A stretch of 64,000 bases of DNA from Prorocentrum cordatum (lineage: Eukaryota). The stretch covers positions 1 to 64,000 of the forward strand of contig CAUYUJ010000287.1 of NCBI GenBank assembly GCA_963575745.1. Direction: 5' to 3'. The position numbers and the translations under genes were made by a program. Shown here in pieces: positions 21,961 to 61,617 of the stretch (position 1 is its first letter; every line of letters starts with the position of its first letter). Under the pieces are notes generated by a model that saw nothing but the letters and a program-made list of their open reading frames with translations, searched no databases and was not told the DNA's origin.

Positions 21961-22804
21961 ACGGGGTGACGACGGCGCAGCGACGAGGCGACGACAACGA
22001 ACACGGAACCGCCAGACAGACACCCAGGCCCAGACCACGGGCGGCGATGAGGCTGCGACGGTGTTGCGACGGCGAGCGCGGAGCCGCCAGACAGACATTC
22101 AGGCCAGTTTTAACAAGATAGGTAAGAAGCAGACGCAGTTTTGGGACATCGGGTAATAATTCGAGGCTTCCTCAACTGATGCCGCAGCCCCTGCACTTGC
22201 GTTATAGGAGTCAAAGGGGGCGGGGTGTTGTCGGCAATTTGCGAGGCGAGGTTAGAAGGCACCTGTGAGGAGTCCTCCGCAGTCGCCATTCGTTGGCTTT
22301 ACTCAAGGGGCTTACACTGGTTCGTCGACCCCCAAGCGAAATGAGGAGCCCATGAAAGTTTCCAGGGAGAGGTATGAGCTAGAATGTCGTACAGGACGGC
22401 ATGGGCTGCAGCCATGTTGGGCCGAGATTTGTTTGCAAGGGGACGTGCGGCGTGGTGTTCACGTGGCAGGAAGACATATGGACCCAACGGACAGACAAAC
22501 CAGTTGTGCCAGGGGAAGTGGATGTGTGCAAGGACTGCGTAAAAAATGGGTTCGCAGCGAACTCTTGGGACCGTCGTGTGGGCCTCTACTCTGGGGGCCC
22601 AGAAGGAGCGCCGGTCAGTTCGGACAGCCCTCCTCCCGTCAAAATCAATTTTGCACCCTGGGGCAGGGGCAGAGGGAGAGTGGGGCAGCCAAATATTTCA
22701 CACGCCTCCCCGCCCCTGGCAGACGGGGGCTGCCGGACACATTGCACAGCGAACCCGCCGCAGGCGCCGACTTTTGGGCCAGAGCAATGTGAGAATGTTG
22801 TGGG

Positions 22805-22865
22805 TCGAGCAGTGGCGAAGCGTCCTGGTTTGCCTGTAGGCCCACCAAAGAATGTTCTAAGAACC
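22805..22865 (+). repeat. Left imperfect inverted repeat (pairs with 37571-37631)
   Basis: tcgagcagtggcgaagcgtcctggtttgcctgtaggcccaccaaagaatgttctaagaacc versus the reverse complement of the right end, tcgagcagggaccgaccgtcccggcattcctataggcctaccacgaggtgtttttcgaacc: 42/61 identities, with the outer 8 bp perfect. Confidence 0.7.
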
Positions 22866-22929
22866 TTTTGTGGTCTGCACGAAATGTTCTCAGAACATTT
22901 CTGGCTGAGACTGACTTGTTCTGACTTGT

Positions 22930-23900
22930 TTGAATAACACCCCCATCCCACGGCAGACGACCTGGGACGATCTATGTCGACAGCATTGTCTCGACGACCT
23001 CCGCCGCGCTCTTGCGGTCGCTCGCAACTCTCTTCTGCCCTCTTTCCTGATCTGGAACGTTCGATACCTACGTAGCACTCTAGCGCATAAGAACCAAGCC
23101 AAGCTGGCCACCATCACCAAAGCGTCCGCCCACAGACGCATAGCCCTACTGCAGGAAACGCACTGGTCCGACCACGACGTCGGCGTGTGGACGACCATCT
23201 TCCCTGCAAGACGCGTTGTGGCGTCCCCTGCCTACCTCGGGCTGGGCGGTGGGTGGTCAGGTGGGGTCGCCATCATGTTCTCTCACGAGTACGAGCTTAT
23301 CGACTCCACCGTCCTGGTCCTTGGATGCGCTATTTCAGCCACTATACGCAAGCAGAACGATACACTCCGGGTCGTGTCAGTCTACCTTCCGCCGGATCGA
23401 CGCTCCGACGTCCTGGTCGCCCTAGCGGACGCTTTGGCTGAGCCGACCGATATCCATCCGTGTTGGGGGGGAGACATCAACATGGAATGGCAAGGCCCAC
23501 GGGACGGCGAGATTGAGGACGTTGCCGCGTGGGTCTCCATGTTGCACAGACACGCCTCACACCCTGCACCCGCCGACGGCCCCACCCGCATCGGCGCCAG
23601 CGGCGAGTCTCAAATCGTCACTTTCGCCTGCCCGGCCACAGTGGCGGGGTCGTACCGCATCTCCAAGGCTTGGAAAACATCCCTCTCCGACCGCGCCCTG
23701 ATCTACGCCGACCCGTCCACACTTCCTGCAGTCAGGAGAAGCGACGTTCTTACACCTGGGGCATACAAGGCACTCCCCGGAGAGGCACATGACGACCTAC
23801 GGCGATGCTACAACATCCTGGAAATGATGTTCCAAGTGCCACAGGTGGATCTGACATGCTTCGTCCAACCCAGCGACTGGACCCAGCCGGCCCCCCCCTG
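22930..23900 (+). pseudogene. APE-type (EEP family) endonuclease domain of non-LTR retrotransposon pol
   Basis: Motifs in canonical order in ORF 22930-24036: IWNVRYL, IALLQETHW, SGGVAIMF, VVSVYLPP, WGGDINM, PTRIG and a decayed SDR (for SDH). Confidence 0.9.
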
Positions 23901-24559
23901 GTCGTCTCCCAGACGAGCACCCAGCCGACGACAGACACGACCTGGACCACGAGGACGACAGCGGCGACGATCCCGTCCCGATTGTCACGGACAGAGCCCC
24001 GCCCCAGCTGGACGCTCTGGCCGAGCACGGGCGTGACGCCCTCACCGCCATGATCACCTCCTGGTGGAAATACTGGGTCAGACGACGTCTGGTCCCCATG
24101 ATGGGCGTGCAGCTGCGAAGAGCCGCAACCAGCACCACAACGTTCAGACCGGCTGGGCCCCTGGCGGCATGGTTGACGAGTGCAGGATGGAGTGGCGGCG
24201 ATCTGACCCCTGACGAGGCGGCAGTCTGGGAAACCAGATGGCGCGCGGATCAGGCCCAGCGACGGGCAGCCCAACTCACCCCATGGCAACGCGGCGCTGG
24301 CGTCGAAAGGGCCCAGCTTGCACCACGCTACCGAATAGGCAGTGAAATCTTCAAGAAGTCACACTCCTTAAGAGGAGTGCGAGGTCCTGACGACTGCTGG
24401 CACGACACAGCCCCTAGCCTAGCATGGAAGAGGTTCTGTGGAACAGCAGAACAGGCATCTGGCAGTCGGTGCCACCTGCCGCCAGCTTGCACGCGCCTCC
24501 AGGATTCCTATTTCGCGGGCGGACGCACTACCCAACTACCCGACCTCCCAGCGCCGCAA

Positions 24560-25800
24560 TGGGGGCGACTAGCTGCCCTTGTCCTGAACCCCGCAGGGAA
24601 CGCACCTGGCATCGACGGAGAACCGTGCGAGGTCTACCACCCGGGCGCCAGGTTCGTAGCCTGCCTACTGGCGCAGGCCTGGCATGCCGCCCACCAGGAC
24701 CCAAGACGCCTCGAGCAGGTTCTTGGCCCATCCGTTGACCTGCTGGTGTGGGTACTCGAGATCCCAGACGCCGAGCGCCCCAACGACCTACGCCCTCTTC
24801 AGCTACCCACTTGCATGCGGCCCCTATTCGGCGCGTCCCTGGCCGACCTACTCGGGCTCCTGGTTGAGCCACAACTCGCGCAGGACCAGGCCGCCAAGAG
24901 AGGGGGGCAGCGTGGACCTAACATTACTGCGGCCACCGACCACCTTGGCAAGACACCCACCCTCAATCCTCCCCCAGGCGCTGCCTGGCACCATTTTTGG
25001 GGAAACGACGGCCCGTTGGTAGACGCCTACATCTGAGAAGCTGTGGCCGGGGCCCCTCCGTCCACAGCGACGGCGGCCTTATTTGCCGACCAAAGCAAGC
25101 GTTCGAAAGACTGTCTCTACAAAGGTTAGAGGAGCTGCTGCGGCGTTGGCGTCTACCAGCATGGCTTAAGCACGCCCTCGTGGTCCTCGTCGAGTACAGA
25201 GACGTACAGACGTGCAGAGGCGCCTACGCCGGACCCAGGAGACATCTACCCCGCTCCATCGGCATGGGAGGCACCGCCTCTCCCATTCTATGGTGCATGG
25301 CATACGACCCAATCATTGAGGCGACCGCGGCCGCCACTGGGGACCGGTGCCCTGCGTGCGTGGGCGACCTAGCTGCGCTCCTAACCACCGCCGAGCAGGC
25401 CCTACGCACCGCCATCCTGCTTCCGTGGGCCTCGCACATGGCTGGGCTCTGTGTTGGCGTGCGCGCCTGTCGAGGGCTCGTGCTACCAGCAGCGCCAAAC
25501 AATTTGCGCCGGGCGTGCGCGTCCCTCCCCGTGCACATCAAACTGCATTCCAGCGGAGCACCAGTGGTAATAGGCCTAATCCCTGAACTGACGAGGCGGA
25601 TCCTCACCTGCGAACTCGGCCCCGGTGGCGCTCGGGGCGCTTGGACCTGGCAGCAGGGGCGCGTGCACGTTCAAGACCGCCCTTGTCCCAGCCGCCAACC
25701 AGGCCTTAGTGGAAACGCATCGTGACGCATTCCCAATTCGGGTCGTTATGCGTCAGGTTACAGTGGCCATACCTGGGAGCTACAGTCGTCTCGCGTGCGG
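24560..25800 (+). pseudogene. Non-LTR reverse transcriptase domain, frameshifted and catalytically decayed
   Basis: APGIDG, DLRPLQL, KQAFERLS, SIGMGGTASPILWCMAYDP, CVGDLA (at the YxDD position) and WPYLGATV appear in order across ORFs 24050, 24997 and 25722. Confidence 0.85.
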
Positions 25801-26819
25801 TAGCAGACGCAGCGCCCCCACGAGGAACTATGACGCCAGCACAGGTGGACGCTATGATCACTGGCACCTGTGGGAAGGCCATGGGCAAGGTGCGGACCAG
25901 GACTCTCGCGCTCTACGACGCGCGCGCCTCGCCTGGGCGGCGAGCGGCGGCGTGGAACGTGCGCATGGCCTCCCTGATCCCTTGCCCTGCCCATTACGTT
26001 CCCCCACCCCCAGCGCTCGAGAGGTCCATGAAATCCCAGTTGCGCCTCGCAGTCGGGCTTGCAGGCACCTATTGGGTACCTGACCGCATCCTCACCGGCC
26101 TGGGCTTCCTGTATCAGATAGCGGGTTGCCCCAGGTGCCCCGTTGCCCTGGCCCGCGGCATCTCGGCATCGGCGCGCGCGCGGGGCGGCGCGTGGGGGCC
26201 CGCGCCTGCCGAGCGACGCTCTCTGAGCGGGTGGAAATGGCAACCAGCAACGACGCGCCGCCTGCCCGACTCAGGAGGGGAGCCAAACTTCTCGCATTGC
26301 CCAAGGCCGCCAGTATCATCTCCATGCGCGCTACCCAGCCGGACCTACCAATGGGGCCGTCTCCTGGACCGCGCGCTCTACGCAGCCGCCTGGGCCCAGC
26401 AATGCGGCGCCGCGGCCAACGACTGGTTCGCGGAGGTCAGCCGCCGACGCAGGTGGGCGCCCGGACACGAATGGGATGGGATATCCTTGCCCGGGCCGCA
26501 GACTTCACCGCCGCCCACCACATTCTCACGTTTCTCGCCAACGGTCTCCCAGGGGACGCAAGATGGCGAAGCGCCCAGGGCCGATTCCCCCACCAGTGTA
26601 ATGCATGTCAATGCGAGGCCGACCGCGTCTGGCACACCGCCTCTTCTCAATACCGGGGCGTCGCCTGGTGTAATCGCTGCCTGAGACGCTGGGCAGGCCC
26701 CCAGGCCAAGTGGCCCCTGCCGCCGCAGCACGCCCAACCAGAACGCCTCCACGCCCTTGCAGCCAACGCCCGCAGCGCATGCGGACCGTCCCGAGCAGTG
26801 CCCGGTCCCGAGCCTAGCC

Positions 26820-26890
26820 CATGCGGTGGCTGCCCCCTGTGTGGCACGGGGGAGGCCGGCAGCGAGCACCTATGGGCCTGGTGCTCAGCT
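26820..26890 (+). other. zf-RVT-type zinc knuckle downstream of RT
   Basis: GCPLCGTGEAGSEHLWAWC matches the CxxC-x8-H-x4-C pattern. Confidence 0.8.
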
Positions 26891-27554
26891 GTTGCGCTGG
26901 CCTGGCTACTGGCGTGCCCTGAAGGCGCACCGGACCTCCTTCCCTGCGCCGTCCTCATTTCTGGCGACCGTGCACGGGCACTCGCTGTCATCCTACATCA
27001 GGTCTCCTACAGGTACCGCGTCGCGCTTGGCAGGCCCCCCCTGGACGCGGACACTGCTGCGCAGCTCATGCGCGCCGGCATGGTGGTCGACCGTTCGTGC
27101 GAGGCCCCCGCGGAGGACGACGCGGACATCTCCATGCCAGGCGCTGACGCAGACAGCGTCTGGACGCGCCCTGACAACGCCTGCCTCGGGTGTATGCCAC
27201 GCGGCCTACCATGCTCTCTGCGTGGTTCCACCACCCTGCGCGGCGCACGGCTGGCCGACCGAGCGGGCGGCGACCGTGGGACATCGGCGGCTGCCACGGG
27301 CACAATCCTGCCCGGCCAGCACCTCCTACACCTCCGGACCACCCATGCGGCCTCAGGGTGGCTGCTGGCAGGGCCGGGATGGCTCCCCTGTCCACGCGTC
27401 ACCGAAGACAGCCCCACTGCCCACTGGACAGGCGCCTTGTGCAGGACGTGCGCAACGCATTGCCTCATACTCGTTTCCACCCAGCCCTTGACGCACGGGC
27501 AGGAGGTCACTGTCAGCGACTCCCCCATCCCGGATCAGGACCGCGCCCAGTGGC

Positions 27555-28030
27555 CATGCGAGGTCACCTTCGACGGCGGGGCCCGCTCCATTGCGGGCAG
27601 GGCGAAGGTGGCTGGCGCTGGCGCCACACTATGGCACCGCCTGGCAAACGGCGGGCCACCCACAAGAATCGCCTCCTGCATGGTCGCCATTCCTGGTTCA
27701 GACAGCGCTCAAGTCGGTGAGGCCGCCGGCTGCTGAGCCGGACTGGGCCCATTGGGCGCCCTAGACGCGTCCACCGGCGGGGCGCGCGCCGCCAGTGTCG
27801 CAGGCGACAACCTCGCAGCCGTCCGGTACGGGGCCGGCGCAGGGAGATATCGGAGACTGCGCCTGTGTGCGCAGATGGATCAAGGCCTCCGCTGCGCCTG
27901 TGTGCGCAGATGGATCAAGGCCTCCGCCCCCTGGCTGCCGAGGGGTGGCGACTCACCTGGCAGGCCGTCAGGAGACGGCTGAACAAGGCTGCGGACGCGC
28001 TTGCCGCCCTAGGGGTCTTTTGGGCCGACG
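27555..28030 (+). pseudogene. RNase HI-like domain, disrupted by a stop and a 35-bp tandem duplication
   Basis: VTFDGGAR...AGAGATLW...SAQVGEAAG, then VAGDNLAAV, then WQAVRRRLNKAADALA, giving D-E-D-D catalytic spacing. Exact duplication at 27857-27891/27892-27926. Confidence 0.85.
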
Positions 28031-28469
28031 GTCTTAGAGAGGCGGGGCCTGCCGCCGTATCCACGTGGATTGCGTGGCACGCTATGCCCACCTACGACGT
28101 GCCAAACGCCGTTCCCGATCATAGCCTAGCCAGGCTCCCCGCCTGCGACATCCCCGCATCCGTTGAGGCACTCGACACGCGCAAACAGGCATATCAGGAA
28201 CAGAGGTGGTGCCTAACCCCCCCTTTCGTCGCCTTCTCGCCCGCCCCGCCCGCTAAGGTCCGGGGCGCTGCCTTCCGTATCCGCTTCTGCCTGGACGTTG
28301 GGCTTCTTTTGCCCCCTGTTCCCCCATGGTTCGTGGCCCGGTGGCCGCATGCGGCCCCCTGCCGCCCGCGGCCACTCAGGAACGCGCCGGGGCGCATCAT
28401 TTTCATGCGCCGCGAGGCCCCTGGCATCAGATGGACTTGCACGGACGACGACAACGGCAGGGGACGTTG

Positions 28470-28545
28470 GGGCTGGCTCTGCGACGGATGCGACAAGGCG
28501 GTCAACGACCAGCAGCACTTCACGTCGACCGAGCACATGAAGCAG
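28470..28545 (+). other. C2H2 (matrin/U1-like) zinc finger
   Basis: WLCDGCDKAVNDQQHFTSTEH, in the same open frame (27865-29175) as the RNase H C-terminus. Confidence 0.6.
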
Positions 28546-30149
28546 CGCAAGCAGACCCAGCTCGCAGAGCACATGGAAGGGGACACCCCACAGGGGCTAC
28601 CTGATCCCCAGCGGTTCATAATGGGAGGCGACCTGTGGGCCATGACCGGGGGTAAAGCCACGCCGGGTACCCCCCGGGTGCAGTGCCCAGGCTGGTGCTG
28701 GGACTGGGGCCTCGACGAGATGAGGCCCCCCGTCGACCCCTGTGTCTACGAGTCGGACTGGGGCTCGATTCCGATCGGATTTCCGGGGTGCTACGACGGG
28801 CCTGGACCCCCCCCTCTGGGATTGGTGATCAGCAGCGACAAAATACAACCGCCCTGGGCCAAGACCGCCAGCCCCAAACGGCAGACGAAGGAGCAACTAC
28901 TCCGCGACGCAGGACAATCACTGGCCGGTTCTCTGGCTATGAGGGGTGCGTCCATCTCCTCTCTGGGACAGTCCGCCGACGTGCCGCCCCCCCCCCCGGG
29001 CCCCCGCCGGCGGCGCAAGCGGCCATTCCCAGGCCCTCCCCCTGGGCGTCGTCCTCTTCCGGCCCCAGCTGCCCCGGGAAGCGCCCTGACCCTTCCAGGG
29101 GCCCATGCAAGGCCGGAACGCCAGCCCCGCCGTCGCCAGGGGCGCCCGCCACCGAAGAGCGACGCATGCAGCTAGCAAAGAATGCTGAGGGCCTCTGCAG
29201 TGTCCCTTGGTACATGGACCAAAGCAGCGCGGCGTCGCGCCCCTGCCTCGGACCCGTCCCTGGAGCAATCCCGCTGCAGTCAGACTGGATGCGACGGCTG
29301 CAGACATGCGGCAGGGAGCTCAAAAGGGTCTTCTTTACCGAGTTCTACGCGAACGTGGAGCCCCCGACGACGGCGCCACAACAACCCGACATATCATCGC
29401 TAGCAAGACTACCTGCGCTCTAGACGTGCAGGTCCACCCTTGTTTCGCGCCTGGAGAACAGTGCAAAGATCTCCTGGGTAAGTGCCAGCTACAGGATCGA
29501 CTCAGAGGCCAAGGACAGGGGCAAAGCGGATACTGCCTACTCGCGTGGGACAAGATGTGGGCCATGGAGTGGACGGAGCGCGACGCGACGGCCGGCGCCC
29601 CGAGGCCCGCCATGATCTCCGAGACCTCGCCAACGGTGGACTTCTTGGCCGAGATGATTCCTGTCAGACCCCCAGCCCCTGGCGCTGAGGTCTCGGGCGC
29701 AGACCGGCGCTGCCCCTCTGGCATAGCCCTGGTCCACTACGACACCAAGAAGGACGGGCGCAGGGTCGACCGCGCCACGAGGATGGCCCAATTCAACAAG
29801 GTCTACGCCGCGATCCGGGAATTCCCCATCGGCCTGGTGCGAGAGGGCCGCCCTTTGGGGCACCGCCCTCCCGGCCATAGTCTGGGCGCTCGTATTCCGA
29901 CACGAGGAGCGCGACAACAAGGCCGGCGCCCCGTCCGTGCCTGCGCAAGGCGTAGCAGCGGACCGACTGCTCGCACAGGCCTCGGCGACATTGGAACGCA
30001 TGATCGACGACCCCGACCATGCCGGCGCCAGCCAACGCACGGCCGAACCGCCCCTGACGCTCCAGCAGGCTGACGAGTCCCCCGGCTGCGTCTTTCAACG
30101 ACTGCAGCCTGTCCCGATGGAGGAGCACCTGGAGCGCGCCTGCAACTTG

Positions 30150-31790
30150 CGCCGCGCCAGTAACGCTCGGCGTCGCTGCGTGCTTGCGACCCAGAACTTA
30201 CTCCTCACCCTGTGCCACGGGCCGCCCGCCACAGGTAAGACCAAGGTCGCGGCCTGCACAGCGGATGCCTACATGTCGCGTCTCGCCCCAGGATGGGGCG
30301 TGGGGTGCTTCGGCGGCGCCGGCGGATCCATGGGTAACCTGGCGGAGCAGATCGGGAAGATCTTGTCTTAGGACTGCAGTGACCTGTTTCCCTGCTCGGC
30401 CGCGCGCCTCGCGCGCGAGGACAAGGTAATGGGCAGCGCCGCCAAGGAGATTACCCCTGTCGTCAAGTGCGTCGAAACGCACAACATCCCAGAAGGCAGT
30501 GTCACTACGGACCACGCGCACTGGCCCCTAAGTGTCGGGCGGAGATCGCGACCGAGGCGAAGCTCATCCTGGCCACGCGCGAAGCGGGAGCTGACCTTTG
30601 GGACAATAAGTTCCCCATGTGCCTCTTGGACGAGGCAGGTCAGACGTCCGAACCCTCGGCCATCATGTCCCTGATCCACGCCGTCCGATGCGGGGCCAGA
30701 ACAGTCCTCTTCGGCGACGGGCGGCATCTGTGCCCGTCGGTCAAGTCTCAACAGGTACTGCGCTGCGGCCTCGGCATTTCCATCCTCGCCAAGTACGTGT
30801 CAGCTATAGGAGAGATCCCTGGCTGCAGCGTCGCCCTGGAAGAGTGCTACCGGATCCACTCTTCCTTGCTCGCAATGCCCTCGGTCACGTTCTATGGGGG
30901 CAGGCTGGTCTCGGCCATCCTGGGCCCCATGCGGCAACGCCCCTGCGCCGAAGGACTGCAGCGGCCGCTCGCAGTACCGTTGTCAAACGAGGAGTACGAA
31001 GCAGCAAGGGACGAGGAAAGAAGATGCGGCCCCGCCAATTCCCTGATCGACACCGCAGGCGGATTCAGGAGTAAGGCGGCCTGTCGGCCGGTCCCGAGAG
31101 GAAACGGCAGCACCGTCTTCGACCAACACGGTTTCCTAATCGCGCGCGTCCCCTCACAAGAGGCCCAGTCCTCGCACCAGGACGGTTGCGCCAACATCCG
31201 CGAAGCACGCGCCGTCGTGGCCCTGGTGAAGGCCCTCGTGCCCTGGGCAACAAGTACCAATAGTGCCATCCTGGTGCTGTCGCCGGACAAGCTGCAGCTG
31301 ACCCCCGTGCTTCCAGGTAGCCCCTGCCTTCCGCAGGACATCAGTCGCTGCTCACGGGCGGCCCGCGCAGACGGGTCCGAGGCGAACGTGGGCGCCGCAG
31401 ATTCCCAGCGCTACCAGGGCCGGGCCAGCTCTCGTTCCTTTCCCGCCGACAATGGGCACATCACAGGAGGGGCCCGGATCAAGCGCGCCACGGCAGCCAA
31501 CGGCCTGAAAGAGCGCTTCGACGGGCTCGTGGACCTGTTCCCTCACCTCCATGCAAACGAGACCCTCCGCGTCACCGCCATCGACTCCGCCAGGGTCAAG
31601 AGGCATCCGTTCCTATACTAATGACCACCAGGGCCAACTCCATGCATAATTGGGGCCACGTGGGCGACCAGCATCGCATCACCGTGGGCGTGACGCGCCC
31701 GCAATGCAACCTCATCGTGACCGCAGACGCAAGGATGTTCCGCGCAGCCACCGACGTCGCCCTCCACCACCTGAGCACCTGGGCTCAGAA
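30150..31790 (+). pseudogene. Upf1/NAM7/DNA2-like superfamily 1 helicase, frameshifted
   Basis: LTLCHGPPATGKT (Walker A, 30219-30242), LLDEAGQTSEP (30629), VLFGDGRHLCPSV, LEECYRIHSSLLAMPSVTFYGGRL, NIREARAVVALV, ILVLSPD, VTAIDSA and TRAN...GHVGDQHRITVGVTR. Confidence 0.9.
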
Positions 31791-32199
31791 GGCAAGCCTT
31801 GCCTTCGAGTCCAACGACAACCTGGATGGAGCTCTGCGCCAGACCCTCGCGGACCCACGCGTCTTTCAGGACGACATCCCCGACGCCGCCAGCCCGGAGG
31901 AGAAGGCCCGGCTGCAGGCGGGTGCCGACCGCAGGCAGAAGGAGAAGGAGGTGATCAAGGCCCGTCAAGCTCAACAGGCGGGCTTCTCGGCCCGCGCCGA
32001 CCTGCCACTCCCTGCAGACCACAGCTGGAAAGACCAGCAGGACGACGTCAACGCTGCGGTCGTGCGACTCCTGTACTGCGCAGCGCTCGGACACTGCATT
32101 CTTTGGTGCCTCGGGCTGCGCCCGCGCCAGTTCGGCGTGGCGGATCAGCCCGCGGACCCCAGCATGCAGGACAGGGAAGGATGGAGCATGAACGGGTGC

Positions 32200-32820
32200 C
32201 TCTTCGTCTGCTCCATGCTGGTGGGACTGGGCGCCGGTGACCTGGTCTACACGGCAGTCTCATGTGGGCCATCCGGCTCGGAGCCTCGAGAGACGACAGC
32301 GCCCAGGCCGTTGACCCCGCCCTGATCCCACCAAGAAGGGGGCGACCGAACATGCGGGCAGCGCGGCATATCAAGGAGGCCTGAATCCCCTCCACCGTCA
32401 CCAGACGCCGCCCCAAATGCTGGCAGCCGTCAACCAGCAAATGCCAGAAGCACAAGGAACCACCCACGCCAGCGGTGTTTCAGGCCTTTTGCGACATGGA
32501 CTCAAGAGGACGCTCGACCGCAGTCCTGCACCGCCTCCTGGACAGCACTGGCGCGACCCTGGGAGCCATCCAAGCCAGAATCCTGCTCGCCCTGTCCCTA
32601 CTCTTGCAGCGCGATCCGCGCGCCTGCCTGTGCCCGTGCGGGGGCGCCGAGGGCGTCGGCGACATGATGGAGGCCATTCTTGGCTTGTGCGAGCCGTGCC
32701 GCCCGCGCGACAGGGTTGCGCGGGACCACCTAGGTGCGCTGTTCGGACCTCAGGACCGGCACTTCAGGGAGCTGCGCTCGGCGCTGGAACTCTTGATTTC
32801 CGCGGTGTCACGCTTAATCA
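32200..32820 (+). pseudogene. Possible RNase III-like domain
   Basis: GAGDLVY (32230-32250; cf. LGDAVY), AVLHRLL...AIQARILL (cf. Mini-III LH...QA..L) and GVGDMMEAILGL (32652-32687; cf. ADxxEALIG). Spacing is longer than canonical. Confidence 0.35.
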
Positions 32821-32999
32821 TGGTCGCCCGTCCCCGCCCCCTGGTCATCAATGCGAATTGCCCCCCAACCTGGAAGGACCTTGAGGCTGGGAGGTTCTCG
32901 CCCCAGGTCACCCTCGCAGTCGTCGAAGGTGCTGTTTCTACCGCTGACCTCTCGGCCTTGGCGGGCCACGAGTGCACGGTGTGCGCGCTCTAGGTCGAC

Positions 33000-35900
33000 G
33001 TGCTCGGGTTCGGCATCGGCCTCGCTGATGACCCTGCAAAGCAGGCAGGCAGGGTCGCCTGGATAGGCGGGGGGTATTCATTCACGCACCTGCACCTGGA
33101 CGCGCCCGCCCCACTCGGGCCCCGTCCTGGCGCGACGCTACGGCCTCCCTGGACAGACGAGCGTGACGCCAGGTGGACGATGGGGCAGAACAGGGCCGAC
33201 TTCTACTGCCAGGGGCGCCTCCGTGGCCTTTTCAAGCACGACAAGGGTGCGTGCGCTAGCGGATCCAGGCTGACGGAGTACTACCAAGGGAGGGGCCTCC
33301 CCTGGCTGTGCACTTGCTGCTGGACCACGAAGGAGCGCCAGCCTATCCCGGCTGACGTGGAGTTCAAGGACTGGATCAACGATCGCCCCGACGACGTGCC
33401 GGTGCGCACGACGCGCGCCTTGCCGGGGCTATGCCCAGCGCCGGCACCCACGGCCTTCACGCCCCTGGAGCAGCTCCAGGTCCCACTGGGCGGCGAGCTG
33501 AACCCGCTCAACGTGGGAACCACGCTGCCAGCCAGCGCGAACGACGACCGCCTGATCCCCCATTTCCACAAGGGCGACTTCGGCATCTGGCGGCGCGTCG
33601 GCTGCCCACCCGGCACAGAGGGACACAGATGGCAGCCCGGACAGCCATTCCCTGGCGTGCACGGTCACACCGCTGACCTTGAAGGCCTCCGCGCCGGCCT
33701 AACCCTGGTCCACGGGCTTCCGCCTGTCCAGCTACTGAAGGAGATGTTCCTGTCCAAGCGCTGGCACGCAGGCTGGTGCTGGAGGGAATGCCTGACCCAC
33801 CAATGGCACATGGCCCCGTCCGCAGTGCAGTACATACTCAACAGGTACGGCCCTGCGGTATACCCTGGCCCAGGAGCCAAACCCCTCGCCGCGCTACCCG
33901 GCATCCCCGCCGCCCCCGCAGGGGTTGCATTGCGCCCCAGCCACAAGGAAGTGCAACGGCGGGCCGCGGCCTGGGACGAGGAGGCGCGCGCCCACCAGGA
34001 GCGCCTTCGCAGCGCGCTGCCACCCCCGCCAGAGAACGAGCAACAACGCCATGCTTGGGCGCGATGGATGACAGCCAGGAAGACGCACGTAAAGGTTGTG
34101 GCGCAGATCAGGGGTCAGGGCGACGGAGGGGCACGCGGCGGCGGGGTCAGGCGCGCGGGAACATATGCCAGCGCGTCAGCTCAGCCAGCCCCGCGCCCTG
34201 CGACCAGCAGCGGGCCCCAGCAGGACGACGGCCCTCGCGCGGGCGGGCGCTACGACCGTCCCCCCGGCCAAGCAGACAGCCCAAGACCCACAAAGGACCG
34301 GCGCCTGACGCCCCCCGATTTACCACCGCCCACGCCGCGGGACAGTGAGCCGACCTCGGCTCCTCCCGCCACGCGACCCACGGCAACCAAGTCCTTGGGG
34401 GCCCCACCGGCCGCCGACGTAAATCCTGATCCCCTCCTCGAGCGCGAGGATCCCGACCGCCGATCCGCGGCAAGGGCGAGTCCCAGACGCGCCGCTCCAG
34501 GGCCCCGCCCGCCCAATCGCAACGGACAGCCCGGGCATCGAGAGCGGCGACTACGTGGTCATCAGAAACGACACCCTCCCCCGGGCCAGGTGGTTCAGGT
34601 CGGCGCAGAGCACTGAGCCCCTGTCCATGCAGCCCCTGGGCGGAGCAGCATTCGGACCTATCCGCGACGTCCAGACCCGCGACGAGGACGGGCGAACCCT
34701 GATCGTCCAAATCGACAGCGAGTGGCTTGAAGTCTGGGGTGCAGGGACCAGGGCGCCACGCGTTGACGTCCTACGCGGCAGTGCGGCGCGCCGTGCAGTC
34801 ACCTTCCTGGGCGGGGCCCCCGACGAGGCACAAGCGCCGCAGGAGCCAGCGGCGCCCCCGCCGGCTCCTGGCTCGGCGCCGACCCTGGAAGCGACGCAGC
34901 GACGTCTGCAGGAGGGACTCAGCCCAAATCCAGGGCCCAGCCCTGCACGCCACGTGCGGTCGCTCAGGGACCCACGCACGAGCTGCCGCCACGCGAGCAC
35001 ACCAAGGGGGATATCCCCGACTATGCCAACGAAGACCAGGAGGAGGACCAGAAACAGAGGCTTGCGGAGGCCGCAGGCATGGTCCACGCGGTCTCACCCT
35101 CCCCAGAGAGACGCGGGCATGGCCAATTCGAGACGAACCCGCGAGAGGTGCGACGCAGCAGTCCCGAGCTCGACGCAGGCGGAACACGCCAGGCCCGCCA
35201 AGCCCACGCACCCACGGGACAGACCGAGCTGGCGATGGCCGCCGCCGACGACCGTGCCCTGCACGCGCGGCTCAGAATGGCGGCCTCAGGAGCCGGGCGC
35301 GCCGCGCCCAACCCCCACCCCTCGCGCGAACACGGGCGCGAGCGCGGCATAGCTAGGGATCGAGCCCCCTGGGAACGGTGCGACAGCGCGGTGCGGCGCT
35401 CGTCCAGAGACACCGGCGATTGGGACCGAGCCAGAGAGCGCGACCGCGACTGGGACCGCGATCGTGACAGGCTGCGTAGGGTGGGCCCCTTGGCATCAAC
35501 AAGGCACCAGCGATCGGGGCCGTGCCAGGGAACGCGACCGCGACCAGGATCGCGATCGCGACAGGGGCGTAGGGTGGGCCCCTTGGCATCAACAGGACGA
35601 TCGCCGCAACCCTGAGCACAAGGACGATCGCCGCTTCCCTGACCCCATCCGCCCCTGGAGGGCCCGCCGTGTCAGCTGGCCACGACGCCCAGACGAGGCG
35701 GCGGCCGCCCACCTGAAGAGGCTGAAGGCCGAGGGAGGCTACCACTTGACCGTAGCCTGGCACTCGTGGCGCAGGCATATGGGTCAGGAGCGGGGCAAGG
35801 GCAAGTCCAAGGGCCAAGTCAAGTTCGACCCGACCTGCCGGCAGCCCAGCATGATCGATCAATTTCTAGAGGAAGTGGCCAGCAACCGCTACCACGTGGA

Positions 35901-36078
35901 TACGCGGTCCTGGAACACGGGCGTCTACGTGGACTGGGAACGCGAGAACGCCCTGTACCAGGAGTTCCAGAAGAAAAGGGAGGTGCCAAAGGTGAAGGAC
36001 GCGGGGAGGGCCAGGCACGCAGCTCTGGATACACCAACAACTGGGCCGGGAAGCGCCCCAGGCGCTGACCAGCTCTGA
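33000..36078 (+). pseudogene. Unassigned C-terminal coding region of the element (Cys-rich segment, Pro-rich and RD-repeat segments)
   Basis: ORFs 33000-34616 and 35464-36078 have the same coding-like composition. They contain FYCQG...CASG...WLCTCCW and RERDRDQDRDRDR, and end at TGA 36078. Confidence 0.5.
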
Positions 36079-37570
36079 ACCTCCCCCCCCCTGACGGCGC
36101 ACAGGGTGCCGCGCTGCCGTGCCTCCTGATCCCTGCAGGTCTCGCGTCGCTGTGCTGCGAGCACAACCAGCGCGTCGCTGACCAATGCGCCCTGCCCTGG
36201 CTCCCCATCCCCTCCTCCTACGCACCTGGACCTGGGACTGTTTGCCCCCTGGTCCCGCATGCGCTGCGACGGCGGCTGGGACTACAGCGCCCTGCTGCAG
36301 GAACCCGGCGGCCCACGGGCACCGCCGTCCACGCGGGCGCAGGGGTCGGCCTCGCGCGCCTCGCAGCGGCGCTGTCAAGGGGTGCAGCGCCGCACGGTCC
36401 TCTTTGCCACGGGCGCCTTGCCCGTGCCGCCATGCCTGGCACTGGCGCCGCGTCGTCCTTCGCGAGTGCGGCCTTGTCTGCGCCTTCGGCTACCTGCCTT
36501 CCTCCTCCTCTCTTCCTTTTCTACTTGCACATGGGACTGTTAGCCCCCCCTGATCCGCTGGGCCTACCTGCCACCCGCGCCGCCCGAGCTGCCTTCCTGG
36601 TCCGGGCAATGGCGGCGCCCTCGTCCACGTCGGCCTGGTCAACGTCTTCGGCGACTTGCCCTCCTCCTCCCTCCTCCTTCGTTCACCTGGTGATGGGGCC
36701 GTTTGTCCCCCCTGATCCCGCAGGGTCTCCCTGCTCCACTCGGCCACGCGCTGCTGCTGGTGCGGGGCTGCTCTGGCGACCGCCGGCTGGCTGGGGCGGC
36801 CTTTCTCCTTCCTGCCCGCTTCTCCCCCCCCCGCTCGATACCGCCCCTCCCATGGCGGCAGCGCCCAGCACTGCGCGGCTCCGGCCTGGTGCCTGGCGCT
36901 TGCACCTTGCCGCCTCGGCGGCTCCGCGGGTCTTGGCTCTGCGCGGCTTAGGCCTGGCCCTTGACACTGCGGAACGGCAGCGCAACGTGTGTGGCTCCTG
37001 CCCGTTCCCACGCGCTTGCCACTGCGGGGCAGGCCCCCTCCCTGCAGCGCACTGGCATCCTGTCGGTTATGGTCGGCAAGTTACCGGCTTCGCCTGGCCG
37101 CCGCGCCTTAGAGTGCGGCTGCTTTCCCATGTTCGTGGATTGGACTACCACGGCCTGGACCTCTTCGGCGCATATTTGGTGTCGCGACGTTGCGCTCCAA
37201 CCCATAGGTGCTACTCTTTCTCTCGGACGTTGTCCTGGTGGCGTGGCACGTCCTCCCCCGCAGTTGATGAGGCTGGTGTTCTCGAAGCGCCGCTGACGGC
37301 GCCACCGCCGACTTTTCGACTCCCGGGACTTCGCCGCCGGGCTCCTGTCCAAGGTGTACCTTTTCCTGCACTTCAACATCGGCACCGCCTGATGCCAGGG
37401 CTTCGCCCTCTCTCGGCCTTGACGTGAGGCCCCGCCTTCTTTTGCCCCCCCTCCCAAATTAATGTTGTGCGCGGCCCGCTTATTAACATCTATCGGAAGA
37501 GGTTCGCTCTCGCCCCGCAGATCCAAAAATATGTTCTACGAGTATTGTTTTTGTTCTTAGAGAATGCTTG

Positions 37571-37631
37571 GGTTCGAAAAACACCTCGTGGTAGGCCTAT
37601 AGGAATGCCGGGACGGTCGGTCCCTGCTCGA
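37571..37631 (-). repeat. Right imperfect inverted repeat (pairs with 22805-22865)
   Basis: See left repeat. It ends CTGCTCGA and is followed by AGTGGG, while the left repeat is preceded by TGTGGG. Confidence 0.7.
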
Positions 37632-37850
37632 AGTGGGTGGGTCGCGAGGCGGGCCGAGTGTGGGTCGCGGGTTGGTCGCGTGACCGATCGGGGTCCTGGG
37701 TCGTGGGTGGGTCGTGGGGCGCTTCGCCTGTGGGTCGCGGATGGGGTCGCGGGGCTGGCCGTTGGTCGCTCGCGTGACTGGTCTGGGGTGGTCCGCGGGG
37801 CGGGCCAGGGGTGGGTCGCGGGGCGGGTCGCGGTTGGGTCGCGGGGTCGG
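37632..37850. repeat. Degenerate gggtcgcg short-unit repeat
   Basis: Repeated gggtcgcgg/tgggtcg words. Confidence 0.75.
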
Positions 37851-37855
37851 TCAGT

Positions 37856-38034
37856 ATCGTTTAACCGATGTCTATCCCCATCCCCATCCACATCTCGAGC
37901 CCCGCCGTCTCACCACCTCAGTTGGGGATATGCCCTTCGAAACCCGAAAAGACGAGCTTATATCCCCATCAGGGGGGTTAATCGGCCAGTGGGGCCCAGC
38001 CCACGTTGCTGGGGATGGGGATCGGTTAAACGAT
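37856..38034. mobile_element. MITE-like ~180-bp element
   Basis: Perfect 14-bp inverted repeat ATCGTTTAACCGAT (37856-37869) / ATCGGTTAAACGAT (38021-38034), extended inward by ccccatcccc/ggggatgggg. Confidence 0.55.
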
Positions 38035-38459
38035 GCCCAGTATGTGAGAACATGATCCCGCACCGGGCACAATCACTTCATCTGTGCACCAGGGACTGTA
38101 AGGCCGTTTGGTCCACTCGCTCTGCTGACCAGGTGTTTATGCAACAGGTGCACAGAAGGGGAGGGCAGTTCCGTTCCAAACGGCGCCTTCGCTAGATTCT
38201 GTTTCTTGGTGCTCCAGCTTCTGGCACTTCCCATATCAACAGGGATCGATGATTTTTCCTCCCAACAAGGCCCTCGCTTGAACGGCAGCGCCACGTGGCG
38301 TTCGCTTCCCAAAAGGGGACCCCTCTCCATAATGGAAAAAGAGAGAGAGAGAGGGAGAGCTTGTTTGGGCTTCTCGGCCAGGAACGTGGAAGGGTGTCTT
38401 GCACCATCGTGACTGCATCCTGCGTTCACTATGGTCGTATTCATCCCCTCCTCTCCAGT

Positions 38460-39070
38460 ACCTTCCTCTCCCTCCTCCTCCTCCTCCTCCTCCTCCTCCT
38501 CCTCCTCCTCCTCCTCCTCCTCCTCCTCATCCTTCCCACCTTAGTTTTTTCCTCCTCCTTCCCACCTCCTCCTTCCCACCTCCTCCTCTCCTCCTCCTCC
38601 TTCCGACCTCTTCCTCCTCCTTCCCACCTCATCGCGCTTCTCTTCCCTCCTCTCCCTCCCCCCTCCCACCCCGCACGCGCGCCCCCGCGTGTGCGGGAGC
38701 CAGGCTCGCCTCCCGGCCAACGTCCACTTCGTCCTCCCGCCTCCTCCTCCTCCTCCTCCTCCTCCTCCTCCTCCTCCTTCCCCTCGTTTTCCTCCTCGTC
38801 ATTCTTCTCCACCCCCCCCTCCCCTCCCTTCATCCTCATCGTCGTCGTCGTCCTCCTCCTCCTTCTCCTCGTCCGCCGTCCCTCTCCCTCTTCCTCCTCC
38901 TCCTCCTCCTCCTCCTGCTCCTCCTCTTACTGCTCCTTCTCCTCCCCCTCCCATCCCCTATCTTCCACCATCTGCCTTCTGCCTTCGGCCTCCCTCCCAC
39001 CTGTTCCTCCTCGGATCCTCTTCCTCCTGCCTCCCTCCTCCCCCAACCTCCCTCTTTCCTCCTCGGATCC
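38460..39070. repeat. (CCT)n-rich low-complexity tract
   Basis: Direct inspection. Confidence 0.9.
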
Positions 39071-39669: not shown

Positions 39670-39704
39670 GGTGACGCTGGTGATGATGATGCTGATGCTG
39701 ATGC

Positions 39705-39764
<60 letters not shown>

Positions 39765-39786
39765 CTGATGATGGTGATGATGGTGC

Positions 39787-39818
<32 letters not shown>

Positions 39819-40215
39819 CTGATGCTGATGATGCTGCTGCTGATGATGAGTATAGTGATGGCATGATGATGAGGTCGATAAGGATGTGGGTGAGGACGAT
39901 GATGATGATGCTGATGATGATGCTGATGATGCTGATTCTGATGATGGTGGCTGGTGATTGTGATGATGATGCTGAGGATTATGATGCTGATGCTGATGAC
40001 GATGCAGCTGCTAATGATGATGATGCTGCTGATGATGATGACGATGATGATGATGATGGGTAGGATCTTGATAATGATGATTATGCTGCTGATGATGATG
40101 CTGAGGATGAGGTCGATAAGGATGAGGGTGAGGGTGATGACGATGATGATGCTGAAGATGCTGATTGTGATGAGGATGCTGATGATGATGACGATGCTTA
40201 GGCTGGTGATGATGC

Positions 40216-40246
<31 letters not shown>

Positions 40247-41149
40247 GCTGATGATTAGGATGATGGTAATGATGATGCTGCTGATGATGATGAGGATAGT
40301 GATGATGATGTTGATGATGAGGTCGACAAGGATGAGGGCGAGGGTGATGATGATGGTGTTGATGATGCTGATGATGATGACGATGATAGTGGCTTGAGAT
40401 GATGATGATGATGATGAGGATGCTACTGCTGATGATGATGCTGAGGATGCTGATGATGATGTTGCTAATCACGATGATGATGCTGATTAGGCTGATGATG
40501 CGGCTGCTGCTGCTGATGATGATGATTAGGATGATGATACTGATACTGATGATGATGATGATGATGATGAGGATGATGATGCTGATGATGAGGGCGACAA
40601 GGACGAGGGTGAGGGTGATGCTGATGATGTTGATGATAATGATGACGGTGAAGATGATGTTGATGGTGATGATTCTGATGATGATGTTGTTAAGGATGCT
40701 GATGATGATGCTGTCAATGATAATGATGCTGATGAGGATGCTGCTGATGATGATGCTGTTGTTGATGATGCTGATGCGGATGCAGATGATGCTGATGCTG
40801 ATGATGATGATCATGATCATGATCATGATGATGATGATGCTGATGATGTTGATGATGATGACAAGGTTGGTGCTGATGATGATGAGGATGATGATTTGGA
40901 TGATGATATCGCTGATCCTGCTGATGATGCTGAGGCTAATCATGATGAGGCTGATGATGATGAGGTCGATAGGGATGAGGGTGAGGGTGATGATGATGCT
41001 GATGATGCTGTTTGTGATGAGGATGATGATGCTGCTTCTGATGATGATAATGATGCTGATGAGGATGCTGATGCTGCTGATGATGATATACTGATGATGA
41101 TGATCATGATGATGATGATGATGATGACTGATGATGGTGATGATGGTGC

Positions 41150-41181
<32 letters not shown>

Positions 41182-41197
41182 CTGATGATGATGATGG

Positions 41198-41229
<32 letters not shown>

Positions 41230-41252
41230 CTGATGATGGTAATGATGATGCT

Positions 41253-41296
<44 letters not shown>

Positions 41297-41299
41297 CAG

Positions 41300-41392
<93 letters not shown>

Positions 41393-41412
41393 GGTCGATA
41401 AAGATGATGATG
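39670..41412. repeat. Degenerate (GAT)n tract with a recurring fixed motif
   Basis: (GAT)n interspersed with gaggtcgataaggatgagggtgagggtgat-like motifs. Confidence 0.95.
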
Positions 41413-41562
41413 AGGCCAATCAACCGACACCAACCCCGGCACCAACGGCGCCAGCTACTGGCTCCGACTCCAGCGCCCGCCCCAATAACGACTCCGACTT
41501 CGACGCGCGGCAGTTGACGCGACAAAGGGCGGACAAATCCTGCCCCCCCTCACCACATCAAG

Positions 41563-54559: not shown

Positions 54560-54641
<82 letters not shown>

Positions 54642-59420: not shown

Positions 59421-59720
59421 TTGTTATCATTGTCATTTGTTGTTGTTGATGCTGCTGCTGTTGGTGATGATGATGATTCACATGATGGTAATGCTGATAC
59501 TGCTGATCATGACGATGAATATGATGAGGATAATTATGACACTGAGGTCGATAATGATGATGGTGAGAGTGATGATCATGATGATGATGATGATGCCGAT
59601 GCTGAATATGATGATTGTGATGATGATGCTTTTGCTCATGATGATGTGGATGATGATGATGATGACGAGGATGCGGATGGTGATGCTGATGATGATGGGG
59701 ATGAGGAAGATGAGGATGGA

Positions 59721-59769
<49 letters not shown>

Positions 59770-60148: not shown

Positions 60149-60219
<71 letters not shown>

Positions 60220-61244: not shown

Positions 61245-61287
<43 letters not shown>

Positions 61288-61579: not shown

Positions 61580-61617
<38 letters not shown>

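What the first reader, a model, noticed from the sequence alone, without database searches (positions are those of the whole stretch)
22805..37631. Giant LINE-like element carrying a Upf1-like helicase and candidate RNA/chromatin effector domains
Seen: on one strand, APE - RT - zinc knuckle - (SET-like) - RNase H - C2H2 finger - Upf1-like SF1 helicase - (RNase III-like) - unknown tail, spanning 22930-36078 with no microsatellites or obvious introns. The RNase H C-terminus and the C2H2 finger share one open frame (27865-29175). The ancestor was therefore either one ~4,400-codon polyprotein or two adjacent ORFs (an off-frame TAA lies at 28214). Known: LINE pol normally ends near the zinc knuckle or RNase H, and Upf1-family helicases (UPF1, MOV10/Armitage/SDE3) are host factors acting on retroelement RNA and in silencing. 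Inference: a retroelement family encoding its own RNA-remodelling or anti-silencing module. I do not know of this architecture being described.
Basis: partly seen in the sequence, partly recalled or inferred. Interest (0 to 1): 0.9.

Follow-up and report, generated by a model that had tools for sequence, protein, structure and literature searches.

The report
Giant LINE with helicase second ORF
A decayed 14.5-kb copy of a non-LTR retrotransposon whose polymerase gene is followed by a second, roughly 2,900-codon gene for an Upf1-like RNA helicase sits inside a small inverted-repeat element; this gene layout did not turn up in my literature searches.

Summary
The core observation holds. On the + strand, a LINE polymerase ORF (APE, RT, Cys motifs, RNase H; 22941-28185) is followed after about 140 nt by a second ORF (28326-36078). 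That ORF has a C2H2-like finger, an Upf1-like SF1 helicase and a conserved tail of about 1,800 aa with no recognisable family.

Intact relatives exist in marine metagenomes, as two separate proteins of 1,735-1,791 aa and 2,945 aa. So the ancestor most likely had two ORFs, not one polyprotein. The window copy is dead, with at least 12 frame changes and 9 stops. It also lacks the conserved first ~50 codons of the polymerase ORF.

The whole stretch is multicopy in one DNA run. The reported ends (22805/37631) belong to a foldback MITE of about 210 bp with hundreds of copies. The retroelement (22941-37482) lies at the centre of that MITE, flanked by a 7-bp direct repeat.

Profile searches found no SET or RNase III domain.

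Closest precedents are insect LINEs with virus-derived SF1 helicases and the giant Dualen LINEs. Verdict: a new variant of a known kind; interest about 0.65.

The parts
22808..22940 (.). Left arm of a foldback MITE-like repeat (host of the insertion). Outer 60 nt are an inverted repeat of the right arm. Carries the palindromes ATGTTCTnAGAAC and a private 10-bp tandem duplication at 22911-22930. TCGA lies at 22805-22808.
   Evidence: Sharp repeat end at 22808 with 75 loose ends, and summed depth 2391 against 15-120 inside. TIR 41 of 60 identical, binomial 3e-11. Motif scans.
22934..22940 (+). ATAACAC, the left copy of the 7-bp direct repeat flanking the insert. It is either a target-site duplication or a deletion microhomology.
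   Evidence: Uninterrupted copies read ...CTGACTTGTT-TTAACAC-ATCGGG... (tables 5c and 7).
22941..37482 (+). Inserted retroelement copy: 14,542 bp, 67% GC, 5'-truncated and decayed.
22941..28185 (+). Polymerase ORF remnant (APE-RT-Cys motifs-RNase H). It matches P0155 aa 52-1788 across 5 frame changes, with stops at 25034 and 27734.
   Evidence: tblastn, 44-54% identity.
23050..23484 (+). APE endonuclease domain (IWNVRYL, LLQETHW).
   Evidence: Pfam Exo_endo_phos, E 3.6e-5. Motif coordinates.
24602..25660 (+). Reverse transcriptase core (APGIDG, RPLQLP, KQAFERLS, GMGGTASP). The YVDD of relatives reads CVGD at 25357-25368.
26127..26869 (+). Cys/His motifs between RT and RNase H (CPRCP, HQCNACQ, CPLCG...H).
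   Evidence: Read by eye; conserved in the P0155/P0156 alignment A3.
27560..28005 (+). RNase H domain (FDGGA ... AQVGEAAG ... NKAADALA), split by an exact 35-bp tandem duplication at 27857-27927.
   Evidence: RVT_3, E 0.0036, on the homologous part of P0155. TRF..
28186..28325 (+). Spacer between the ORFs. The stop of P0155 aligns with CAG at 28183-28185. An ATG at 28326 lies one base out of frame, four codons before the conserved RWPH.
28326..36078 (+). Second ORF remnant. It matches P0001 aa 2-2934 across at least 7 frame changes, with stops at 30369, 32323, 32382, 32991, 34306, 34420 and 35350. P0001 aa ~1984-2392 has no counterpart.
   Evidence: tblastn, 24-44% identity.
28477..28536 (+). 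C-x2-C-x8-H-x5-H finger-like motif, conserved in P0001 and P0154.
   Evidence: No Pfam hit.
29838..31760 (+). Upf1-like SF1B helicase core: Walker A GPPATGKT at 30219, DEAGQ at 30623, GDGRHL at 30707, VGVTRPQ at 31684.
   Evidence: Pfam AAA_11/AAA_12. PDB best match Upf1..
31760..34364 (+). Conserved tail of unknown fold, with paired CxxC motifs and two hydrophobic stretches.
   Evidence: 40-48% identical to P0001 (A5). No Pfam, PDB or Atlas match.
35650..36075 (+). Conserved C-terminal segment (HLxRLK...AWHxW...VDWERE).
36079..37482 (+). 3' untranslated region with no poly(A) or microsatellite tail. Its last ~600 nt are more abundant in run X1 than the interior.
   Evidence: Depth 122 against 15-85. 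No Pfam hit on either strand. 3'-end fold z-score -0.55.
37483..37629 (.). Right arm of the MITE-like repeat. It starts with TTAACAT (the right copy of the direct repeat) followed by CT-ATCGG. TCGA lies at 37628-37631.
   Evidence: Sharp end at 37629 with 178 loose ends, and depth 3966..

Best explanation
The stretch 22941-37482 is a dead, 5'-truncated copy of a giant APE-type non-LTR retrotransposon. It was inserted as one unit, by target-primed reverse transcription, into the central loop of a foldback MITE of about 210 bp.

The element has two ORFs about 140 nt apart:
- a polymerase ORF of about 1,750 aa (APE, RT, Cys motifs, RNase H);
- a second ORF of about 2,600-2,950 aa (finger motif, Upf1-like 5'-3' helicase, long Cys-rich tail).
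A 1.4-kb 3' UTR follows. Some relatives also carry an upstream ORF0.

Shown:
- the domain content;
- intact relatives of both ORFs;
- multicopy status of the whole stretch;
- a single interruption point in the MITE;
- the missing conserved N-terminus of the polymerase ORF.

Inferred:
- both ORFs sat on one RNA template;
- the helicase protein acts in cis on that 15-18 kb, 67% GC RNA. Its likely role is as an ATP-driven remodeller that clears structure and bound proteins for processive reverse transcription. A secondary possibility is shielding a long, multi-stop RNA from host Upf1-type surveillance.
For: Domains:
- APE and helicase by Pfam. The helicase best matches Upf1/NAM7, E 3e-21.
- The polymerase ORF maps onto the intact P0155 (1,791 aa; RVT_1, Exo_endo_phos_2, YVDD) at 44-54% identity.
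- RNase H: RVT_3, E 0.0036. The ORF1 profile hits the R2 RT at 5.4e-5.

Second ORF:
- It maps onto the intact P0001 (2,945 aa) from its second residue almost to its end.
- The tail is 40-48% identical.
- P0001 and P0154 both start within 12 residues of the conserved RWPH.

One unit:
- Run X1 covers all 30 bins. The interior has summed depth 15-122, against about 4-5 for single contigs. The MITE arms have depth 2,391-3,966. Contigs join 22920 directly to 37531-37586.
- Loose-end consensuses show that uninterrupted MITEs read TTAACAC-ATCGG. The window has ATAACAC before the insert and TTAACAT-CT-ATCGG after it.
- Homology to the polymerase starts at the junction, while about 50 N-terminal residues conserved in P0155, L001 and L002 are absent.

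Decay is private to this copy. At 37 listed sites where all X1 contigs differ from the window, 16 changes are synonymous. Of the 21 non-synonymous changes, the other copies carry the distant homologue's residue in 7 and the window in 0. The stop at 25034 reads AGA elsewhere.
Against: - Adjacency of the two ORFs was not shown in any relative. The 9 contig lengths recorded for the polymerase clusters and the 2 recorded for P0001/P0151 share no value.
- A search with P0001 at near length found only itself and one unrelated plant helicase. So the 20-33-kb contigs that carry an intact polymerase ORF may lack an intact P0001-like gene.
- 0 of 19 helicase relatives scanned carry RT or APE.
- X1 contigs are short, so none was shown to bridge 28186-28325.
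- The 7-bp direct repeat fits a microhomology deletion as well as a target-site duplication.
- There is no 3' tail and no significant 3' stem-loop.
- Depth is about twofold higher over 30.5-34.3 kb than over the polymerase ORF. That could reflect helicase-only copies.
- The helicase's function is inference only.
Confidence: 0.6

Rival explanations
1. The inverted-repeat arms are the element's own ends. The abundant ~210-bp repeats would then be internal-deletion derivatives that keep both ends, as RIME is to ingi in trypanosomes (recalled; the search listing only shows that the family exists). The deletion would have formed between the two TAACA[CT] repeats. The 5' arm would supply the promoter and start codon, and the two ends could pair as a panhandle in the RNA.
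For: Both ends are sharp and shared by the short and long forms. Removing the private 10-bp duplication puts the ATG at 22884 in frame with the polymerase ORF. P0156 shows that the N-terminus varies in length. The direct repeat fits a microhomology deletion equally well.
Against: A 60-100-nt terminal inverted repeat with subterminal palindromes and identical 4-bp flanks (TCGA) is the anatomy of a class II MITE, not of any LINE I know of (the comparison is recalled). Homology to three relatives begins in the middle of a conserved N-terminal region, exactly at the junction. All joints listed have breakpoints inside the arms and none in the interior (15 listed, 161 not shown).
Confidence: 0.18
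2. Chance nesting. A LINE holding only the polymerase ORF inserted into the MITE, and an unrelated helicase-encoding element or retrogene later landed in its 3' UTR in the same orientation (or the reverse order).
For: No relative was shown to carry both genes. The region is densely repetitive. Depth is higher over the helicase part.
Against: It needs an insertion within 140 nt of the polymerase stop, in the same orientation, with almost no 5' UTR of its own. The polymerase homology abuts the left MITE junction, and the MITE is interrupted at a single point. The two ORFs show similar densities of disruptions (7 in 5.2 kb against at least 14 in 7.7 kb). The helicase gene is itself multicopy and intronless.
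Confidence: 0.15
3. In this lineage the two genes are fused into one polyprotein of about 4,400 aa.
For: The window has one open frame from 27721 to 29172 with no stop between the RNase H end and the finger, and no in-frame ATG before RWPH.
Against: Relatives end the polymerase protein at a conserved position and start the helicase protein at a conserved position. The position of P0155's stop is CAG in the window, one transition away from TAG, and an ATG lies one base out of frame just upstream. At 67% GC, a 53-codon open spacer in the same frame has a chance of roughly 0.1 (my estimate). 0 of 19 helicase relatives carry RT, and neither of the 2 polymerase relatives has a helicase match.
Confidence: 0.07

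Closest known systems
Insect R1/TRAS and Jockey LINEs with an added SF1 helicase domain (Lazareva 2015, PMC4686597, abstract read; Morozov 2019, PMC6338049, passages read; Morozov 2017, PMC5563155, search listing only)
   Same: A non-LTR retrotransposon that encodes a superfamily 1 helicase downstream of its RT. An accessory role in transposition or in countering silencing has been proposed for those elements.
   Different: In the insect elements the helicase is a domain of tobamovirus-like viral origin fused to the C-terminus of ORF2. Here it is a cellular Upf1-type core (AAA_12 at 1.4e-25 against Viral_helicase1 at 0.014). It sits inside a separate ~2,900-aa ORF with a long unknown tail, and its relatives come from marine protist or metagenome sources.
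Dualen/RandI LINEs, including the cryptophyte Dualen-1_GCr with a 5,287-aa ORF (Lescot 2016, PMC5029228, passages read; Lopez-Cortegano 2023, PMC9977147, passages read)
   Same: Giant algal or protist LINEs with APE, RT, RNase H and CCHC plus unusual accessory domains. They are found in marine plankton data.
   Different: Dualen is defined by a restriction-like endonuclease in addition to APE. None was detected here, and no SET or peptidase domain either. Dualen has one ORF and no helicase.
Xenopus Tx1L LINE inside the inverted-repeat element Tx1D
   Same: A LINE lies inside a short TIR element with 4-bp flanks, giving a composite whose outer ends are inverted repeats.
   Different: Tx1L is site-specific for its host element. 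Site specificity here is untested, because only one copy was seen in context.
Helentrons (DINE-1 paper PMC4067079, search listing only)
   Same: A mobile element that combines a helicase with a LINE-derived APE endonuclease and has inverted-repeat termini.
   Different: Helentrons are rolling-circle DNA elements with a Rep domain and a Pif1 helicase, and they have no RT. This element has an intact RT in relatives and no Rep match.

Membership tests
APE-type non-LTR retrotransposon (LINE) | N-terminal AP-endonuclease-like domain | tested here: met
   Exo_endo_phos, E 3.6e-5, in the window. Exo_endo_phos_2, E 5e-4 and 3.2e-4, in P0155 and P0156. All are just below Pfam cut-offs. Weak profile hits to LINE endonuclease structures, 0.18-0.2.
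APE-type non-LTR retrotransposon (LINE) | Reverse transcriptase with a YxDD catalytic motif, downstream of APE | tested here: met
   Met in relatives: YVDD is invariant in A3, RVT_1 at E 1.4e-6 scores 28.6 bits against a cut-off of 29.6, and the R2 RT is hit at 5.4e-5. The window copy reads CVGD and has no Pfam hit.
APE-type non-LTR retrotransposon (LINE) | No long terminal direct repeats; multicopy | tested here: met
   Self-BLAST finds no direct repeat of the ends. The interior is multicopy in run X1.
APE-type non-LTR retrotransposon (LINE) | Insertion hallmarks: 5' truncation, target-site duplication, 3' tail | tested here: inconclusive
   The conserved N-terminal ~50 aa are missing. A 7-bp direct repeat is present but also fits a deletion. 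No poly(A) or microsatellite tail.
Dualen/RandI clade | Restriction-like endonuclease in addition to APE | tested here: not met
   No such Pfam match in P0155, P0156 or P0001 at E<=0.1 or in the tail pieces at E<=1. A divergent PD-(D/E)xK fold cannot be excluded without a structure.
Upf1-like SF1B helicases | AAA_11 + AAA_12 core with Walker A, DEAGQ, GDxxQL and a motif VI arginine | tested here: met
   P0001: AAA_12 at 1.4e-25 and AAA_11 at 1.4e-14. Best PDB matches are Upf1/NAM7, then Sen1, SMUBP-2 and DNA2. IGHMBP2-family model at 2.9e-29. The motifs are intact in P0001 and partly mutated in the window.
UPF1 orthologues (nonsense-mediated decay factor) | N-terminal CH zinc-knuckle domain that binds UPF2 | tested here: not met
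   No Pfam match upstream of the helicase core in P0001 at E<=0.1. The Atlas gave only weak leads (0.77-0.79) to 1B-domain and ZNFX1 clusters.
Insect LINEs with a virus-derived SF1H domain | Helicase of alphavirus/tobamovirus-like type fused to ORF2 | tested here: not met
   Viral_helicase1 scores E 0.014, far weaker than the cellular-type models. The helicase is a separate ORF in relatives.
RNase III | Ribonuclease III domain profile | tested here: not met
   No Pfam match for window 32385-32990 at E<=1 or for P0001 at E<=0.1. Only a motif-level likeness by eye (LTHR...AEGLGDVLEAVLG).
SET methyltransferase | SET domain profile | tested here: not met
   No match in 36 window ORFs at E<=1 or in P0155 and P0156 at E<=0.1.
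Class II MITE / foldback element (for the two arms only) | Terminal inverted repeats, short fixed flanking duplication, high copy number, no coding capacity | tested here: met
   TIR 41 of 60 identical. TCGA on both flanks of this one copy. Summed depth 2,391-3,966 and direct arm-to-arm joints in run X1. The flank duplication rests on a single copy.

The most novel reading that the evidence does not exclude
The ~2,900-aa helicase protein is an integral, selected second gene of an autonomous LINE lineage that is widespread in marine protists. It would replace or supplement the usual RNA-chaperone ORF, driving remodelling of a very long GC-rich template. It could also act as a decoy against the host's Upf1-type RNA surveillance, which should otherwise target such a multi-stop RNA with a long 3' UTR. 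A bolder version is that the inverted-repeat ends are also the element's own, so the RNA would close into a panhandle.
Probability: 0.4. Interest if true: 0.8.

Novelty: new variant of a known kind. Interest (0 to 1): 0.65.

Why it matters
Upf1-family helicases (UPF1, MOV10, HELZ2) are known as host factors that restrict or process retroelement RNA. A LINE lineage that carries its own conserved member of this family would reverse that relationship. It would also give a natural system for asking what an RNA helicase contributes to target-primed reverse transcription of very long templates.

It extends the known range of LINE gene content beyond insect virus-derived helicase domains and the Dualen accessory domains. 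It also adds about 1,800 residues of conserved protein with no recognisable family.

For annotation, the finding shows how a nested insertion in a foldback MITE can pass for a transposon with inverted-repeat ends.

Tried and rejected
- Whole genome: none is held for this window.
- Earlier findings: three look-ups returned nothing.
- Expression: no RNA holder listed.
No fold search could follow.
- ESM Atlas: no usable hit for window 32994-34364. For P0154 residues 1-600 there were only leads below 0.8.
- PDB by sequence: nothing for the tail profile.
- NCBIfam: only helicase models.
- Rfam on 22000-38500: 2 matches, both far below gathering scores. No HDV-like ribozyme.
- 3'-end RNA fold: z-score -0.55.
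- Minus-strand ORFs: 0 of 21, plus the + strand 3'-UTR ORF, had a Pfam hit.
- Other copies in the window: no other element copy and no other MITE copy.
- Linking the two genes in relatives:
  - Contig lengths of the clusters did not coincide.
  - P0001 at near length found only itself plus a plant helicase at 2% coverage.
  - P0001 residues 1120-2000 at shorter lengths found nothing.
  - Viral contigs: nothing in 3 scans.
  - Genome contigs: nothing in 2 scans.
  - The metagenome scan gave 3 loci, all covering only the 5' part of the polymerase ORF.
- Alignment A2 was too divergent to seed a locus scan.
- A giant TIR DNA transposon reading was considered and dropped. No transposase-like match was found, and the interior is a standard APE-RT gene.
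Full report
**Setting.** The window is GC-rich (48-70% in 2-kb steps) and full of tri-nucleotide arrays and satellites (87 TRF rows). No whole genome is held for it. Between 22941 and 37482, TRF reports a single row, an exact 35-bp duplication at 27857-27927. A self-BLAST finds no second copy of the region in the window.

**What the sequence encodes.**
- Pfam on 27 + strand ORFs found an AP-endonuclease domain in 22915-24033 (E 3.6e-5). It found Upf1-type helicase halves (AAA_11, AAA_12) in 30383-31618 and 31321-32322. It found no RT, SET, RNase H or RNase III.
- A second scan of 36 ORFs at E<=1 added only a weak Walker-A match.
- The RT is visible by eye (APGIDG, RPLQLP, KQAFERLS, GMGGTASP), but its catalytic box reads CVGD.

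**Relatives of the helicase ORF.**
- A search of 1.84 billion representatives with the helicase ORF gave 1,094 hits at E<=1e-3, 34 at E<=1e-10 and 4 at E<=1e-30.
- The best is P0001, an intact 2,945-aa metagenome protein. The next are short fragments 63-82% identical to the window, which EukProt labels Pyramimonas sp. CCMP1952.
- P0001 starts MRWPH, followed by a C-x2-C-x8-H-x5-H motif. Its helicase core lies at residues 612-1114 (AAA_12 at 1.4e-25, AAA_11 at 1.4e-14). It best matches Upf1/NAM7 structures, E 3e-21. About 1,800 further residues follow.

**Relatives of the polymerase ORF.**
- A word-indexed search with window 26084-27733 at longer lengths found two proteins, P0155 (1,791 aa) and P0156 (1,735 aa). 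They lie on contigs of 19.7-32.8 kb.
- They carry Exo_endo_phos_2 and RVT_1, both just under Pfam cut-offs, and an invariant YVDD.
- Their profile hits the R2 reverse transcriptase at 5.4e-5.
- The C-terminus of P0155 matches the RNase H-like RVT_3 model at E 0.0036.

**Mapping back to the window (tblastn).**
- P0155 residues 52-1788 cover 22930-28176 through five frame changes and two stops (25034, 27734).
- P0001 residues 2-2934 cover 28339-36030 through at least seven frame changes and seven stops. P0001 residues ~1984-2392 have no counterpart.
- The tail is 40-48% identical between P0001 and the window.

**One ORF or two.**
- Relatives encode two proteins with conserved end and start positions.
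- In the window, the position of P0155's stop is CAG (28183-28185), one transition from TAG. An ATG at 28326 lies one base out of frame, four codons before RWPH.
- The shared open frame 27721-29172 is therefore most simply explained by decay.
- None of 19 helicase relatives scanned carries RT or APE, and neither polymerase relative has a helicase match.

**The ends.**
- Contigs of one DNA run (X1) laid at 80% likeness cover all 30 bins. 9,144 contigs were laid, at a range of identities.
- Summed depth is 15-122 in the interior, against about 3-5 for single contigs. It is 2,391 and 3,966 over the bins that hold 22808-22940 and 37483-37629.
- Loose ends pile up at 22808 (75) and 37629 (178), and contigs join 22920 directly to 37531-37586.
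- The two arms are inverted repeats, 41 of 60 ungapped positions identical (P about 3e-11). They carry ATGTTCTnAGAAC palindromes and are flanked by TCGA on both sides.
- The loose-end consensuses overlap each other and align to window 37547-37585. A typical short copy is therefore left arm + TTAACAC-ATCGG + right arm, about 210 bp.
- In the window, ATAACAC (22934-22940) precedes the 14,542-bp interior and TTAACAT-CT-ATCGG (37483-37496) follows it.
- Homology to the polymerase begins at this junction, although about 50 N-terminal residues are conserved among P0155, L001 and L002.
- I read this as a 5'-truncated LINE copy inserted with a 7-bp duplication into the loop of a foldback MITE.
- The same direct repeat could instead mark a microhomology deletion that made the short element from the long one. 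I cannot separate the two readings with one laid run.

**Are the two genes one mobile unit?**
- For:
  - A single interruption point in the MITE.
  - The polymerase remnant abuts the left junction.
  - A 140-nt spacer in the same orientation.
  - Similar decay in both ORFs.
  - Multicopy status throughout.
  - A higher depth over the last 600 nt, as 5'-truncated LINE copies would give.
- Other copies are closer to the functional state than the window. At 37 listed sites where all X1 contigs differ from it, 16 changes are synonymous. Of the 21 non-synonymous changes, 7 restore the distant homologue's residue and 0 go the other way.
- Against:
  - No relative was shown to carry both genes. Contig lengths do not coincide.
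  - P0001 at near length found only itself and one unrelated plant helicase.
  - Scans of viral and prokaryotic genome collections found nothing.
  - The three metagenome loci cover only the 5' part of the polymerase ORF.
- I put the single-unit reading at about 0.75.

**Function.** The polymerase ORF explains mobility by target-primed reverse transcription. This follows from established knowledge of APE-type LINEs and is not tested here. For the second ORF only conservation is shown. I infer a cis-acting RNA remodeller for a 15-18 kb, 67% GC template. Protection from host RNA surveillance is a secondary possibility.

**Comparison with print.**
- Eight full-text searches found no LINE with a Upf1-type helicase ORF.
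- They did find insect LINEs with virus-derived SF1 helicase domains (PMC4686597, abstract; PMC6338049, passages).
- They also found a 5,287-aa cryptophyte Dualen with SET, peptidase, APE, RT, RNase H, CCHC and RLE domains (PMC5029228, passages).
- Repbase could not be consulted.
- I class the finding as a new variant of a known kind.

Noticed in passing
window 22808-22940 and 37483-37629: A foldback MITE-like family of about 210 bp. It has ~60-100-nt inverted arms, ATGTTCTnAGAAC palindromes and TCGA flanks. Summed contig depth in run X1 is roughly 100 times that of the interior. No autonomous partner was identified.
   Followed up: partly
L001:1-330 and L002:471-2260: Two metagenome relatives have an upstream ORF0 (at least 400 aa in L002, no Pfam match). 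Its C-terminus is conserved (33% over 83 aa, E 5e-6) and ends ARSPVSL*. The polymerase frame is -1 relative to ORF0, stays open across ORF0's stop, and has no nearby ATG. This suggests an ORF0-pol frameshift or reinitiation. The window copy has no ORF0.
   Followed up: partly
window 27857-27927: An exact 35-bp tandem duplication (2.0 copies, 100% identical) that shifts the frame inside the RNase H domain. It looks like a recent private mutation of this copy.
   Followed up: no
P0001 residues ~1984-2392: About 400 residues that look like two repeats of a ~180-aa module (WHLRHLGFWVDQ... and HFRLLHLAFDRQWVDW...). They are absent from the window copy, which has Pro/Arg-rich low-complexity sequence there instead.
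   Followed up: no
window 31900-32200 (P0001 residues ~1230-1300): Two conserved hydrophobic stretches just after the helicase core (GWSM.G.LF...GL.AG..VYTA). They could be membrane-spanning or buried helices.
   Followed up: no
window 48147-51662, 41563-42553, 39681-41413, 43273-44737, 59447-61798: A 63-bp satellite of about 56 copies, an 85-bp satellite, and kilobase-long TGA/CGA tri-nucleotide arrays surround the element.
   Followed up: no
window 54473-55987 (+): A 505-aa open frame with a polysaccharide pyruvyl transferase match (E 7.6e-6, 26.5 bits against a cut-off of 25.3). It is the only plausible host gene seen among 56 ORFs scanned outside the element.
   Followed up: no
proteins P0002-P0004, P0011, P0012: P0002-P0004, which EukProt labels Pyramimonas sp. 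CCMP1952, are 63-81% identical to the window's helicase ORF. Two weaker hits (35-36%) are P0011, with the same label, and P0012, an NCBI partial protein from Prorocentrum cordatum. Several fragments cover the same part of the query, so the gene is multicopy there too.
   Followed up: partly
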